Source: a virus (Duplodnaviria > Heunggongvirae > Uroviricota > Caudoviricetes). From it: DNA of 13,795 nt. Position 1 is the stretch's first letter; the number at the start of each line of letters is the position of its first letter. Positions 1,896 through 5,319 of the stretch are shown here, piece by piece. The stretch lies in IMG/VR virus record IMGVR_UViG_2529292889_000013; one strand, given 5' to 3'. Under the pieces are notes generated by a model. It saw only the letters and a program-made list of their open reading frames with translations, searched no databases and was not told the origin of the DNA. Both the position numbers and the translations under genes were made by a program.

Positions 1896-2594
1896 TTACG
1901 GCACTGCGTTAATCAGATTACAAATACCTCTTTTGGCAGGGTCTGAATTCAACTTCTGAAAATTGGCGTTCAACATAGCCGTGTGTAAGTGATTCTCAAC
2001 CTCAAAGAATAAGTCGATTTTGCCCTCTTTGGCTGCCTGTTTCTTCCAAATATTCACTTGGTCATCAGCAATACGACTGGCGCAAGTGAACAAGAACGAA
2101 CTGCCTCTAGGAATGGATGTCGTGCTGTAATACTCACCATCTACTTCTACATATTTAGCTCGGAATGACTCTAAGGTTAGCTCATTGCCGTTCTTGACCG
2201 ACTTAGCTTCTGCCTTACTTGTTTCTTCCTGCTCTTCAGAATGTTTCTGCGCCGACGTGGGTATGTCATTGGCCGCTGTTACGCTGACTGAACTCCCCAA
2301 ACCTTTGAGGCCATTAATTTGGATAAGATAAGCCAGCTCCAGAGCCTTATTATCAGTGAGTTTTCCACGCATATTTACCCACTGACGTTGAACCATTTTT
2401 AGGGTGTCTGCGTTCTCTGGGTTTCCTTTGAGGGCACTAGAATAGGCAGAGCTAAGCTGTTCGTCTAATTTTGACAGACGTTCGTTATCGCAGATTTTAT
2501 GTTCGATTGCTGTCGAAGCCTTTTGGCAGTCAAAGCTGGCTGCAAATGCACCCGGCGATGCCACTAACAATGATGCCAGTAGGATATTTTTCAT
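1896..2594 (-). CDS. Secreted protein with N-terminal DUF1311 / LprI-like (lysozyme-inhibitor-like) domain; self-contained cargo gene
   Basis: Start ATG at 2592-2594 (MKNILLASLLVASPGAFAAS...) with a GGAG 6 nt upstream; the ORF-track start 27 nt further up has no SD. Clear signal peptide, then a Cys-containing SFDCQKAS...HKICDNERL...LDEQL region that I recall as typical of DUF1311. Own terminator; 130-bp intergenic region upstream. Confidence 0.7.
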   Translation of the reverse strand: MKNILLASLLVASPGAFAASFDCQKASTAIEHKICDNERLSKLDEQLSSAYSSALKGNPENADTLKMVQRQWVNMRGKLTDNKALELAYLIQINGLKGLGSSVSVTAANDIPTSAQKHSEEQEETSKAEAKSVKNGNELTLESFRAKYVEVDGEYYSTTSIPRGSSFLFTCASRIADDQVNIWKKQAAKEGKIDLFFEVENHLHTAMLNANFQKLNSDPAKRGICNLINAVP

Positions 2595-2724
2595 ATTCAC
2601 TCCATAAATACAAAAGCGCATTACTATAGCACTTAACCGATCGCTTATCTCGCCCGTTCGTCATTCTTATCTAACCAGAACATGCGACTGCCACAGCACA
2701 TGTCGAGGATTGCTGCATGTCCAG

Positions 2725-3333: not shown

Positions 3334-3627
3334 TCAGTCATTACTGATAGCGCCATAGCGTGATCGATAATTACGCAGGCGCGGGTCAATTTCAGGGAAG
3401 TGGGTATATGTGGCTTTGCGGAATGGTCGGATTGATGTCTGGTAAATTCGCTCGCGTTCTTCTTTCTCTGCAAGCCATATACAATGGCGAAATTCCTTTT
3501 CCTCTTTCGTTTCCTGCGGTAGCGACATTATCCGATCGTAGTTTTTTCTGAATTTATCCAGCACCTCCGATACGGAATTGCCGGAACAGCGGCGCGGGTC
3601 ATCCGCACCATACAGAGGCGCTGGCAT
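3334..3627 (-). CDS. Hypothetical protein, 97 aa
   Basis: ATG at 3625-3627 preceded by AGGAG with a 6-nt spacer, 14 nt downstream of the ssb stop. No family recognised. Confidence 0.65.
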
Positions 3628-3640
3628 GATTTTCTCCTGA

Positions 3641-4147
3641 TTAAATTGCGTGAATAGCGTGACGAGGGAAGGGGAGAGTTACTGGTGCAAAGGGTATATC
3701 GTCGTCAAAATCCATCGGAGGTTCGTTGTGTTGTGCTGGTGATGATTGCTGCTGTGGCTTCTGTGATTGCCTGCTGGCTGCTTGTTGTTTGCTGTCGCCA
3801 ATGCCGCCAAGCATTTGCATCACGCCATTAATTCCGACATGAACCTCGGTTGTGTAACGGTCTTGCCCTGACTGGTCTTTCCACTTTCTGGTTCTCAGCA
3901 TTCCCTCGAAATAAATCTGATCACCTTTTTTCACATACTGCCCCACGACCTCAGCCAGTTTCCCGGATACAGCAACACGATGCCATTCAGTCAATTCCTT
4001 TTGCTCGCCAGTATTTTTATCTCGCCATTGTTCTGACGTGGCTATTGTCAGGTTAGCGAACGCTGTTCCTGATGGTGAGTATCGAACTTCCGGGTCTTGT
4101 CCTACCCGACCAAGGATAATCACCTTATTTATCCCGCGAGAACTCAT
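3641..4147 (-). CDS. ssb: Single-stranded DNA-binding protein
   Basis: OB-fold N-terminus ([20 protein letters not shown]...TEWHRV...[18 protein letters not shown]), Gln/Pro-rich linker and the acidic [11 protein letters not shown] motif. Start taken at ATG 4145-4147 (SD AGGTGGAG upstream); the track start is a GTG 9 nt further up. The ORF continues 15 codons past DDDIPF. Confidence 0.9.
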
Positions 4148-4611
4148 TTGCTCCACCTCTTGCCAGTTTTTATGTTGCTTATAATTGATTGAGATACACC
4201 CATGTCTTTTGCTATCTTGTACTGACTCTCTTTTTCAGAGAGTCTTTTCCTAATTTCTATAACCTGCCACTCTGTTAATTTTGCACCATGATGAGCATGA
4301 CCTTTCTTGGCTCCACGATGCCTTCCTTTTGCTATCTTGTCGTCCATGTTTTCTTGCGCGCTACCTAAAAAGAGATGTTCAGGATTAACGCAGCATGGGT
4401 TATCGCATTTGTGGCAAACCATCTTCCCAGATGGAATGGGGGAGTGATAAAGCTCAAAAGCAACCCGATGAGAAAGCATTGTTACGCCAAAGGCTACAAA
4501 TTTTGTGTATCCTCCTTTGTTTTTTGAATAGGTAGACTCCCAGCAACCTGTTGTTTCATTAACTTTGTAGCTGGACTCGAATCTTTTAATAATTCCGTCC
4601 AAGTGAGACAT
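4144..4611 (-). CDS. HNH homing-type endonuclease
   Basis: 155-aa ORF with a Cys/His cluster [19 protein letters not shown]...HHGAKL typical of phage HNH nucleases, and a C-terminal helix-turn-helix-like tail. The ORF abuts the SSAP stop and overlaps the ssb start. Confidence 0.8.
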
Positions 4612-5319
4612 TTATGCCGCCTGTTTTAGTTCGTTAACTCTGATGTTCATTACCTGAACGCATTTAGCCTGCGCCTCCTCGTTGCCAGCCATTAATTGCC
4701 AGTCACGCTGATAACGCTCGATGAGTTTTTTCTTGTCAGTTTCTGTTGATGCATAATCGCTGAAGTCTTTCAGGATTTGTTCGCAGTCAACCGATGGAGA
4801 TTTCTGGTTGGTATTTTCTGGTGATGGTTTGTTATCTGATGCTGGGATTGCCCATCCCGGCAGCGATGGAGGGAGCCAGTAAAATCCTGTTCCATCCTTC
4901 AGTTTTGCCCTGTGCCACCCCTGCTTTTTATCGAGAGATGTTTGTGCGAAACCTTCCTCAAGGTTATACAGATACCGACCGATTCCCCACTGAACGGCAG
5001 CGCGCTTCATTGCGCCGGAACGACCACCTTTGACGGCTTCTACCTGCGTGTTTTCAGCAGCATCCCATTTGGTTACCCATTCGGAATCAATCCTGATTGA
5101 TATGCCGCATTCAACGCCTCCGTTGTTGGGAATATCGCGGTATTCATTGCGCCATCCTGCTTTGCCGCAAACATCGTCCAGGCGTTTCATGATTGCCCTG
5201 TTCGTGACATAAGCCAGCACCATAGCCCACACCTTGCCATCGCGTGTTTTACCGCTTTGCTGTATTCGCCATTCGATATTTTCAGGGCTGAATGGCTCAT
5301 CGAATTTATTCAAATCCAT
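4612..5319 (-). CDS. Single-strand annealing recombinase, Rad52/Sak-like
   Basis: 235-aa ORF in the lambda bet position next to ssb. Contains an AMKRAAVQWGIGRYLYN motif that I recall as characteristic of Rad52-family annealing proteins. SD GAGGTG 4 nt before the ATG at 5317-5319. Confidence 0.7.
   Translation of the reverse strand: MDLNKFDEPFSPENIEWRIQQSGKTRDGKVWAMVLAYVTNRAIMKRLDDVCGKAGWRNEYRDIPNNGGVECGISIRIDSEWVTKWDAAENTQVEAVKGGRSGAMKRAAVQWGIGRYLYNLEEGFAQTSLDKKQGWHRAKLKDGTGFYWLPPSLPGWAIPASDNKPSPENTNQKSPSVDCEQILKDFSDYASTETDKKKLIERYQRDWQLMAGNEEAQAKCVQVMNIRVNELKQAA

What the first reader, a model, noticed from the sequence alone, without database searches (positions are those of the whole stretch)
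3641..4147. Phage SSB whose conserved acidic tip DDDIPF is not C-terminal
The ORF carries the canonical [11 protein letters not shown] motif but reads on for 15 more codons ([15 protein letters not shown]) before TAA. In bacterial SSBs this motif is the extreme C-terminus and mediates partner-protein binding, so an extension would be expected to alter those interactions. At least two base changes separate the codon after Phe (GCA) from any stop, so this is not a simple single-substitution loss of the stop codon.
Basis: partly seen in the sequence, partly recalled or inferred. Interest (0 to 1): 0.5.

Follow-up and report, generated by a model that had tools for sequence, protein, structure and literature searches.

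The report
Phage SSB with capped acidic tail
A prophage single-stranded-DNA-binding protein carries the host-like docking motif DDDIPF followed by 15 more residues; this add-on is not damage but a conserved motif found on many unrelated phage ssDNA-binding proteins, and no partner or function is known for it.

Summary
Window 3641-4147 encodes a 168-aa bacterial-type SSB that ends ...[29 protein letters not shown].

It is not a stop-codon lesion or a sequencing error.
- The identical 15-aa extension is in phages HK75, epsilon34 and ECP1.
- It is in 111 of the 120 closest SSB clusters.
- About 300 complete E. coli genomes hold most of the gene, and at least 120 IMG/VR contigs hold its exact last 45 nt.

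A looser form, acidic-IPF-AP[VI][GT]L[PQM][FYH]-x7-8-hydrophobic end, always closes the protein. It sits on unrelated carriers: Vibrio phage OB-fold proteins, the ~400-aa SSB-like proteins of rV5-type phages, a DUF669 protein and several PHROGs of unknown function. Conserved residues use different codons, so selection acts on the protein. AlphaFold2 predicts the tail to be disordered.

Close relatives differ in having it (ES18 versus epsilon34; Bas52 versus rV5). Homing-endonuclease genes sit exactly at the IPF|AP junction.

My inference: it is a portable short linear motif that buries the terminal Phe carboxylate needed by host SSB clients and adds a second docking unit, changing which partners the phage SSB recruits. 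The partner is unknown. I found no description of the motif in the searchable literature.

The parts
3641..4147 (-). ssb coding sequence (168 codons plus TAA)
   Evidence: Translation. PF00436 E=1.7e-36. TIGR00621 E=6.7e-49. 99% identical to HK75 SSB. PGAP annotates it as ssb in E. coli genomes.
3803..4147 (-). OB-fold DNA-binding/tetramerisation domain (residues 1-115)
   Evidence: AlphaFold2 block-mean pLDDT is 90-96 over residues 11-110, with strands E9-114. Aligns to PDB 1eyg/1eqq residues 1-115.
3722..3802 (-). Q/S/P-rich disordered linker (residues 116-142)
   Evidence: pLDDT below 50 from residue 119. Poorly conserved among homologues.
3689..3721 (-). Host-like SSB-Ct motif [11 protein letters not shown] (residues 143-153), here internal
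   Evidence: Identical to the last 11 residues of E. coli SSB. Between phages it differs mostly by synonymous changes; rV5 is the exception, with four amino-acid changes.
3644..3688 (-). 15-codon extension [15 protein letters not shown] (residues 154-168)
   Evidence: 15/15 identical in HK75, epsilon34 and ECP1. Motif AP[VI][GT]L[PQM][FYH]..[ILM]-COOH in 104 distinct extensions. 53 clusters in 1.84e9 representatives, essentially all at the extreme C-terminus. Codon evidence for protein-level selection.
3334..3627 (-). abc2 (anti-RecBCD), next gene downstream, 13 nt after the ssb stop
   Evidence: phrog_656 E=2.6e-55. Annotated as abc2 in HK75, epsilon34 and ES18.
4144..4611 (-). Free-standing HNH endonuclease gene wedged between erf and ssb; its stop overlaps the ssb ATG (ATGA)
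   Evidence: phrog_59/6254 HNH, E down to 1.8e-33. Absent from HK75, where erf abuts ssb. In the listed hits, records without an HNH under the match align to this ssb only from nt 17.
4612..5319 (-). erf (Erf/Rad52-like ssDNA annealing protein), upstream member of the recombination module
   Evidence: phrog_1097 E=2.1e-129. Same order erf-ssb-abc2 in HK75 and ECP1; in epsilon34 and ES18 another gene sits between ssb and abc2.

Best explanation
The gene is an intact bacterial-type SSB of the erf-ssb-abc2 recombination module of a lambdoid/P22-like prophage.

Its disordered C-terminal tail is a two-part short linear motif. The first part is the host-identical acidic tip [11 protein letters not shown]. 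The second is a conserved 15-residue add-on, A-P-[VI]-[GT]-L-[PQM]-[FYH]-x-[RNK]-x-x-[IL]-[HYN]-x-[ILM]-COOH. The add-on repeats the 'aliphatic-x-aromatic' unit of IPF seven residues later and ends in a non-polar C-terminus.

Shown:
- The add-on is translated and under purifying selection.
- It always closes the protein.
- It occurs on several families of phage ssDNA-binding proteins that share no family-level sequence match.
- It is present or absent between close relatives.

Inferred:
- Canonical SSB clients (ExoI, chi, RecQ, PriA, RecG and others) anchor the free alpha-carboxyl of the terminal Phe. The add-on should therefore stop the phage SSB from recruiting them in the normal way, for example by keeping ExoI off the 3' ssDNA tails used by Erf.
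- The second hydrophobic unit provides a new or tighter docking surface for an unidentified partner.
- That partner is probably a host protein, because the carriers come from phages with different replication and recombination machinery (see full report).
For: Conservation and spread:
- Identical in HK75, epsilon34 and ECP1, although the ECP1 SSB is only 70% identical overall.
- 111 of the 120 nearest SSB clusters have a 15-aa extension.
- 166 phage records cover at least 80% of the tip-plus-extension query.
- 302 E. coli genomes hold most of the gene.
- At least 120 IMG/VR contigs hold the exact 45 nt.
- 53 representative clusters match, essentially all at the extreme C-terminus.

Portability:
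- It sits on PF00436 SSBs, DUF669, phrog_44/7364 SSBs and the unknown-function PHROGs 4477, 2544, 3284 and 32668.

Protein-level selection:
- Conserved Ala, Pro and Leu residues use different codons in Proteus, Klebsiella, Vibrio and rV5 phages.

Disorder:
- pLDDT is below 50 for residues 119-168.

Need for a free C-terminus:
- PMC10164576 and PMC7293020.

Other pointers:
- A 51-aa ORF with no OB fold, consisting only of a linker plus this tail, sits after recT in two metagenome contigs. This fits a tail that acts by docking rather than through DNA binding.
- An rV5-family SSB-like protein is functionally tied to ExoI and the DRT10 defence system (bioRxiv 10.64898/2026.04.29.721553). That orthologue lacks the extension.
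Against: - No partner was identified and nothing biochemical was tested here.
- The add-on is dispensable in nature. ES18, Yersinia phage 06.16-1, C130_2 and Bas52 end at IPF.
- If the aim were only to avoid host clients, deleting the tip would be simpler. Keeping the tip intact is not explained by pure capping.
- Among lambdoid phages the extension DNA is nearly invariant, with 0-2 synonymous changes. Within that group, conservation reflects recent recombination rather than independent selection.
- The tail-only ORF is seen in only two contigs and could be a deletion remnant.
Confidence: 0.55

Rival explanations
1. The extension is a lesion of this copy: stop-codon loss, an indel or a sequencing error in an otherwise canonical ssb.
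For: The canonical motif is terminal in host SSBs and in some phage SSBs.
Against: The same reading frame and the same 15 residues occur in independent phage isolates, in about 300 complete E. coli genomes and in at least 120 viral contigs. Diverged versions occur in Vibrio, Proteus, Klebsiella and rV5-type phages.
Confidence: 0.01
2. The extension is functionless read-through spread by mosaic recombination or by homing-endonuclease traffic at the conserved tip-coding DNA. It would be a tolerated passenger rather than a selected motif.
For: - The extension DNA is almost invariant among lambdoid phages even where the ssb body has diverged.
- Homing-endonuclease genes sit at the IPF|AP junction in 27 of 120 viral contigs and in rV5.
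- The extension is gained or lost between close relatives.
Against: - Across distant carriers the nucleotides diverge (14-26 of 45 differ) while A, P, [VI], [GT], L, the aromatic residue and the hydrophobic end are kept, with different codons.
- A passenger would not keep a 14-16-residue length.
- It would not keep a motif on carrier families with no sequence match to each other.
Confidence: 0.1
3. The add-on is a C-terminal degradation tag. Its non-polar last five residues, with a basic residue upstream, resemble ClpX C-motif 2 (MuA ...RRKKAI) and the non-polar C-terminus rule for E. coli cytosolic proteolysis. It would keep the phage SSB short-lived or allow ClpX remodelling.
For: The last five residues are non-polar in all variants (AIHAI, AIYVI, FMHVI, LLNCM, LLLCI), and R/K/N is common at +9. 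The resemblance to MuA and to the non-polar rule comes from my own knowledge; it was not tested here.
Against: This does not explain the invariant AP[VI][GT]L.[FYH] half, nor why the tag must directly follow IPF. The 16-residue variant ends in Ser (AIYAIS).
Confidence: 0.12
4. The add-on is a beta-sliding-clamp-binding motif. P-[VI]-[GT]-L-x-[FY] resembles the hexapeptide QLxLxL/F (for example Hda QLSLPL). The phage SSB would then tether the host clamp or polymerase to phage ssDNA.
For: Hydrophobic residues at positions 2, 4 and 6 match the hexapeptide pattern. The motif is in a disordered tail, as clamp-binding motifs usually are. The consensus is recalled from my own knowledge.
Against: The nearly universal Gln at position 1 is replaced by a near-invariant Pro. 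The related 16-residue variant [LIM]G[HFL]GYG does not fit the pattern.
Confidence: 0.07
5. The add-on docks a phage-encoded partner of the same module (Erf or Abc2). This would be analogous to the HK620 SSB tail NDYPPF, which is needed to stimulate its cognate Sak4 annealase.
For: ssb lies between erf and abc2 here. Several other carriers lie beside exonuclease or annealase genes. Precedent: PMC5928155.
Against: The same motif is on rV5-type, Klebsiella KB57 and Vibrio K360 proteins with unrelated neighbours. ES18 has erf and abc2 but no extension.
Confidence: 0.1

Closest known systems
E. coli SSB and its C-terminal tip (SSB-Ct, ...[15 protein letters not shown])
   Same: OB fold, disordered linker and an 11-residue tip identical in sequence. 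PDB 1eqq and 7f2n align over residues 1-153.
   Different: In the host protein Phe is the last residue, and its alpha-carboxyl is a main contact for clients (PMC10164576). Here 15 more residues follow.
Phage SSBs with a terminal tip: ES18 gp48, Yersinia phage vB_YenM_06.16-1 and Escherichia phage C130_2 SSBs
   Same: ES18 and the Yersinia phage have the same position after erf or a recombinase. ES18 gp48 is 71% identical to the window SSB.
   Different: They end at ...IPF. In ES18 an HNH endonuclease gene follows the stop codon directly.
rV5 gp209 and Bas52_0087 (phrog_4477), the SSB-like trigger of the DRT10 defence system
   Same: rV5 gp209 ends ...[23 protein letters not shown], the same two-part tail. 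The family is described as having two OB folds with an SSB-like C-tip and is linked to host ExoI/SbcB (bioRxiv 10.64898/2026.04.29.721553).
   Different: The body is ~410 aa with no PF00436 match. The studied protein, Bas52_0087, ends at IPF without the extension. The paper does not mention an extension.
HK620 SSB (tail ...NDYPPF), partner of the Sak4 annealase
   Same: A phage SSB in a recombination module whose last residues are needed for partner stimulation (PMC5928155).
   Different: Different SSB family and a different, terminal tail. No add-on after the aromatic residue.
Engineered SSB with GFP fused to its C-terminus
   Same: The tip is present but not terminal.
   Different: It is artificial. 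[quoted passage not shown] The natural add-on is a short conserved peptide, not a bulky domain.

Membership tests
Bacterial-type SSB (Pfam PF00436 / TIGR00621) | N-terminal OB-fold domain matching the family profile | tested here: met
   PF00436 E=1.7e-36, residues 6-104. TIGR00621 166 bits against a cut-off of 54. High-confidence AlphaFold2 OB fold.
Bacterial-type SSB (Pfam PF00436 / TIGR00621) | Disordered linker followed by the acidic motif D-D-D-I-P-F | tested here: met
   pLDDT below 50 from residue 119. [11 protein letters not shown] at residues 143-153.
Bacterial-type SSB (Pfam PF00436 / TIGR00621) | The motif is the extreme C-terminus, with the free alpha-carboxyl of Phe | tested here: not met
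   15 residues follow Phe153. Curated profiles and PDB chains end at residue 153.
Bacterial-type SSB (Pfam PF00436 / TIGR00621) | Homotetramer that binds ssDNA | not testable with these tools
   Only inferred from close similarity to E. coli SSB over the OB domain.
Extended-tail phage ssDNA-binding proteins (group defined here) | Acidic-IPF immediately followed by A-P-[VI]-[GT]-L-x-[FYH] | tested here: met
   APVTLPF at residues 154-160. Position table from 104 distinct extensions.
Extended-tail phage ssDNA-binding proteins (group defined here) | The extension is 14-16 residues, ends the protein and has a non-polar C-terminus | tested here: met
   15 residues ending AIHAI-stop. In essentially all 53 representative hits the match reaches the last one to three residues of the protein.
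Beta-clamp-binding motif (QL[SD]LF / QLxLxL) | Gln at position 1 with hydrophobic residues at positions 2, 4 and 5/6 | tested here: not met
   Position 1 is a near-invariant Pro. The hydrophobic pattern alone fits. The consensus is recalled from my own knowledge.
C-terminal degron (ClpX C-motif 2 / non-polar C-terminus rule) | Non-polar last residues with upstream basic residues, and ClpXP-dependent turnover | tested here: inconclusive
   The sequence pattern is compatible. Turnover cannot be tested with these tools.

The most novel reading that the evidence does not exclude
The extended tail is a phage counter-measure module. By presenting the host SSB tip in a capped, two-unit form, it acts as a high-affinity decoy or selective filter for one or more host SSB-client proteins, ExoI/SbcB being the leading candidate. 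This would protect phage recombination and replication intermediates or change what ssDNA-sensing defence systems such as DRT10 or Retron-Eco8 detect. Because it works as a plug-in peptide, it has been moved between unrelated phage ssDNA-binding proteins. It may even exist as a stand-alone 51-aa tail-only protein.
Probability: 0.3. Interest if true: 0.7.

Novelty: new variant of a known kind. Interest (0 to 1): 0.5.

Why it matters
The SSB C-terminal tip is the hub through which more than a dozen bacterial genome-maintenance enzymes are recruited, and its free terminal Phe is treated as a defining feature.

A natural, conserved and portable peptide that caps this tip in many phages would show that phages tune, rather than simply copy, the host SSB interaction code.

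It also offers a ready-made probe for which clients tolerate an internal tip. It may explain why closely related phages differ in their interaction with ExoI-linked or SSB-sensing defence systems.

Lab phages with the identical tail (HK75, mEp235, mEpX2) make the question directly testable.

If the add-on turns out to be neutral, the finding reduces to an annotation footnote plus an example of homing endonucleases targeting conserved tip-coding DNA.

Tried and rejected
- **Abc1 remnant.** I first thought the tail might be left over from P22 abc1, which occupies the same slot between erf and abc2. I dropped the idea without checking P22. The tail stays with ssb when the downstream gene changes (exonuclease in epsilon34, abc2 in HK75). 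It also occurs on unrelated proteins.
- **Tail-profile search of the 5.8-billion protein set.** The second returned almost only short fragments of 80 aa or less. These were useful as tail sequences but not for protein architectures. The exhaustive representative search did that job.
- **Literature string search.** DDIPFAP, IPFAPV, IPFAPI, LPFPRH and DIPFSP returned nothing relevant. A search for 'SSB-Ct / phage SSB / extension' found no description of the add-on.
- **PDB search with the tail profile.** Only canonical tips matched, including SSB-tail-tagged myosin constructs. None had the extension.
- **DNA-level role for the 45 nt.** The scan found no promoter-like or terminator-like site there, and counts were at shuffle level.
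- **Pfam on non-SSB carriers.** No families matched. PHROGs gave only 'unknown function' families.
- **Cluster-member names.** Nearly all unnamed; the one named member is from Pseudoalteromonas.
- **'Mini-protein' P0124.** This is a gene-calling artefact of a longer ORF.
- **Clamp-binding motif.** Considered and down-weighted because Pro replaces the key Gln.
- **PxxP (PFAP) reading.** Noted but not pursued, because the PxxP model for SSB is itself disputed (PMC10164576).

Full report
**1. What is in the window**

The finding's coordinates hold an ORF on the minus strand.
- The ATG is at 4147 and the TAA at 3643-3641, giving 168 codons.
- The protein reads [23 protein letters not shown]...[28 protein letters not shown].
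- [11 protein letters not shown] is residues 143-153 (window 3689-3721). The 15-residue extension is residues 154-168 (window 3644-3688).
- The codon after Phe is GCA.
- Fifteen stop-free codons are not unlikely by chance (about 0.49). Only conservation can show the extension is meaningful.

The gene sits in the early-left recombination module of a lambdoid/P22-like prophage.
- Upstream is erf (4612-5319, phrog_1097).
- Then comes a free-standing HNH endonuclease gene (4144-4611). Its stop overlaps the ssb start as ATGA.
- Then ssb, followed 13 nt later by abc2 anti-RecBCD (3334-3627, phrog_656).
- Integrase and excisionase lie at the left end. cI, cro, cII, replication-initiator-like and DnaB-like genes lie to the right (names assigned by eye from the translations and from the annotated homologous loci).

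**2. It is a genuine SSB**

- Pfam PF00436 matches at E=1.7e-36.
- TIGR00621 scores 166 bits against a cut-off of 54.
- PDB SSBs (1eqq from E. coli; 7f2n) align from residue 1 to 153.
- AlphaFold2 with a 49-sequence alignment gives a confident OB fold (block-mean pLDDT 90-96 over residues 11-110) and a disordered remainder (pLDDT below 50 for residues 119-168).
- Every curated SSB profile that reaches its own last position does so at residue 153. This holds for TIGR00621, NF004972, NF005170, phrog_18154, phrog_7364 and phrog_2544. The one exception is the broad phrog_44 profile, whose match runs to residue 167.
- E. coli SSB chain 1eqq_A ends exactly at ...DDDIPF. The extension therefore lies outside what these models and structures describe as an SSB.

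**3. The extension is not a lesion**

- Phages HK75, epsilon34 and ECP1 have SSBs 99%, 91% and 70% identical to the window protein. All three carry the identical 15 residues. ES18 (71% identical) ends at ...DDEIPF.
- Of the 120 closest protein clusters in the 5.8-billion set, 111 have a 15-residue extension, one has 12 residues and seven end at the tip.
- In complete E. coli genomes, 408 of 5426 have a match and 302 hold most of the gene. In the listed hits PGAP annotates it as ssb, and only one 5'-truncated copy is flagged as a pseudogene.
- At least 120 IMG/VR contigs hold the exact last 45 nt.

**4. The extension is a portable motif**

A 28-residue tip-plus-extension query found 166 phage records covering at least 80% of it. 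The carriers include proteins from families with no sequence match to each other:

| Carrier | Tail |
|---|---|
| Proteus phage V3 SSB | ...[21 protein letters not shown] |
| Vibrio phage K360 OB-fold protein | ...APVGLQFGKKFMHVI |
| Vibrio phage 1.036.O OB-fold protein | ...APIGLMHNNNFMHCI |
| Klebsiella KB57_040 (406 aa) | ...APIGLPYGRNFIHCI |
| rV5 gp209 (423 aa) | ...[21 protein letters not shown] |

- The last four have no significant Pfam match (KB57_040 was not scanned itself).
- A 29-position tail profile was searched against all 1.84 billion cluster representatives. It found 53 clusters at E<=1e-3 and 13 at E<=1e-10. In essentially all of them the match reaches the last one to three residues of the protein.
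- These carriers are 50-480 aa long. They fall into PF00436, DUF669, phrog_44/7364 (SSB) and the unknown-function PHROGs 4477, 2544, 3284 and 32668.
- From 104 distinct extensions the 15-residue consensus is:
  - +1 A, +2 P, +3 V/I, +4 G/T, +5 L, +6 P/Q/M, +7 F/Y/H, +8 P/G
  - +9 R/N/K, +10 H, +12 I/L, +13 H/Y/N, +14 A/V/C, +15 I/L/M-COOH
- There is also a 14-residue form (APIGLQYP.LL.C[MI]).
- A 16-residue form ([LIM]G[HFL]GYG[VIM]CR[KQ]AI[YH]AIS) aligns position for position with the 15-residue form.
- The motif repeats the aliphatic-x-aromatic unit of IPF seven residues later.

**5. Selection acts on the protein**

- Between the window and the Proteus, Klebsiella, Vibrio and rV5 versions, 14-26 of the 45 nucleotides differ. 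The conserved residues are kept with different codons: Ala GCA/GCC/GCT/GCG, Pro CCA/CCT/CCG, Leu CTC/CTG/TTA/TTG.
- Among the lambdoid phages the 45 nt are nearly invariant, with 0-2 synonymous changes, even where the ssb body is 30% diverged. That points to recent recombination within this group.
- No promoter-like or terminator-like site lies in the 45 nt.

**6. Presence/absence polymorphism and homing endonucleases**

- Close relatives differ: ES18 versus epsilon34, and Bas52_0087 (ends ...SFDDDIPF) versus its rV5 orthologue gp209 (extended).
- In rV5 the indel relative to Bas52 starts right after the Phe codon. It contains the extension plus an endonuclease gene, gp208, that overlaps the extension.
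- In 27 of the 120 IMG/VR contigs with the exact 45 nt, and in E. coli prophages such as strain EC45, ssb ends ...NFDDSDIPF-stop. An HNH endonuclease ORF of about 158 aa, intact in most of these contigs, follows at once. That ORF reads out through the old ssb 3' end...[26 protein letters not shown]-stop.
- In ES18 a different HNH gene follows the IPF stop.
- In the window itself another HNH gene sits at the 5' edge of ssb. In the listed E. coli hits, records without an HNH under the match align to the window gene only from nt 17.
- The conserved tip-coding DNA therefore looks like a hot spot for homing-endonuclease insertion. Such insertions convert an extended tail into a canonical one.
- The extension occurs on Vibrio, Klebsiella and Proteus phage proteins with no endonuclease annotated beside them. 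This argues that the extension belongs to the SSB tails and that the HNH fusions are secondary.

**7. Mechanism (inference)**

- Published work shows that SSB-Ct pockets have a 'basic lip' that anchors the alpha-carboxyl of the terminal Phe. This is among the most important contacts (PMC10164576).
[quoted passage not shown] The fusion is also dominant-negative from a plasmid (PMC7293020).
- The natural add-on should likewise prevent canonical docking.
- Its own strong conservation, and the retention of a host-identical tip, indicate a positive docking function as a two-unit peptide.
- The carriers come from phages with different replication and recombination machinery. The named ones are overwhelmingly Enterobacterales and Vibrio phages, plus a Pseudoalteromonas genome. 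A host partner is therefore more likely than a phage one.
- In a module whose other members are Erf and anti-RecBCD Abc2, shielding 3' ssDNA from SSB-stimulated ExoI is an attractive specific role.
- A 2026 preprint links an rV5-family SSB-like protein, host ExoI/SbcB and the DRT10 defence system. It does not mention any extension, and the protein it studied lacks one.
- A 51-aa ORF made only of a linker plus this tail sits after recT in two metagenome contigs. It has its own ribosome-binding site. This hints that the tail can act without a DNA-binding domain.
- None of this identifies the partner.

**8. Rivals**

- Lesion or sequencing error: refuted by the distribution.
- Neutral passenger of recombination or endonuclease traffic: unlikely given the codon evidence.
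- C-terminal degron: the non-polar end fits, but the AP[VI]GL.[FY] half is not explained.
- Beta-clamp motif: the hydrophobic pattern fits, but Pro replaces the key Gln.
- Phage partner such as Erf or Abc2: contradicted by carriers without those genes and by ES18.

**9. Novelty and verdict**

- The protein family is known and routinely annotated.
- The capped, two-part tail was not found in any curated model that ends at the tip, in any PDB entry or in the searchable literature.
- I rate it a new variant of a known kind, of moderate interest. It is a clear, testable feature of phage-host SSB biology whose function remains to be shown.

Noticed in passing
L013 1584-2546 (E. coli EC45 prophage); L028 and 26 other IMG/VR loci among L018 onwards: An HNH endonuclease ORF of about 158 aa (MK[IV]CSRCHQQKEE...), intact in most of these contigs, sits exactly between the IPF codon and the extension. 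As a result ssb ends ...NFDDSDIPF-stop and the HNH protein ends ...[18 protein letters not shown]. This is seen in 27 of 120 viral contigs holding the exact 45 nt. In EC45 the ORF has an internal stop and is unannotated.
   Followed up: partly
window 4144-4611 (minus strand): A free-standing HNH endonuclease gene is inserted between erf and ssb, with an ATGA stop/start overlap. HK75 lacks it (erf abuts ssb). In the listed E. coli hits, records without an HNH under the match align to the window ssb only from nt 17, and the first residues differ (MSSRGI versus MASRGV), as expected of a co-conversion tract.
   Followed up: partly
L011 2043-2682 versus L017 2290-2370: rV5 gp209 carries the extension and is overlapped by an endonuclease gene, gp208. 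The closely related Bas52 (RudolfGeigy) lacks both, and its gp209 orthologue Bas52_0087, the published DRT10 trigger, ends at ...DDDIPF. The indel begins right after the Phe codon.
   Followed up: partly
L138 3001-3156 and L139 776-931: A 51-aa ORF ([51 protein letters not shown]) has no OB fold. It follows recT in a GamL / DUF3799 / RecT module, after a terminator-like hairpin, and has its own ribosome-binding site. It may be a stand-alone SSB-tail mimic or a deletion remnant.
   Followed up: partly
P0165, P0180, P0182, P0188, P0217, P0229, P0230, P0156 (fragments): A second extension type, DDDIPF-[LIM]G[HFL]GYG[VIM]CR[KQ]AI[YH]AIS, aligns position for position with the 15-residue form and shares its ...R.AI[YH]AI end. 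Its carriers and distribution were not examined.
   Followed up: no
PHROGs 2544, 3284 and 32668 (P0260, P0263, P0269, P0271, P0250): Several phage protein families of 270-480 aa annotated 'unknown function' end in the SSB tip plus extension. They are therefore likely to be unrecognised ssDNA-binding proteins.
   Followed up: no
window 1896-2621 (minus strand): A 241-aa ORF with a signal-peptide-like N-terminus lies between the integrase/excisionase genes and the early genes. A 'lysozyme inhibitor LprI family protein' is annotated in a comparable position of a related E. coli prophage (L015). It is probably a moron gene.
   Followed up: no
P0243 (120 aa) and P0242 (89 aa): These proteins have a non-SSB N-terminus (a phrog_1138-like, unknown-function region in P0243) joined to the last ~30 residues of this very ssb, including the extension. 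They are probably deletion fusions in E. coli prophages.
   Followed up: no
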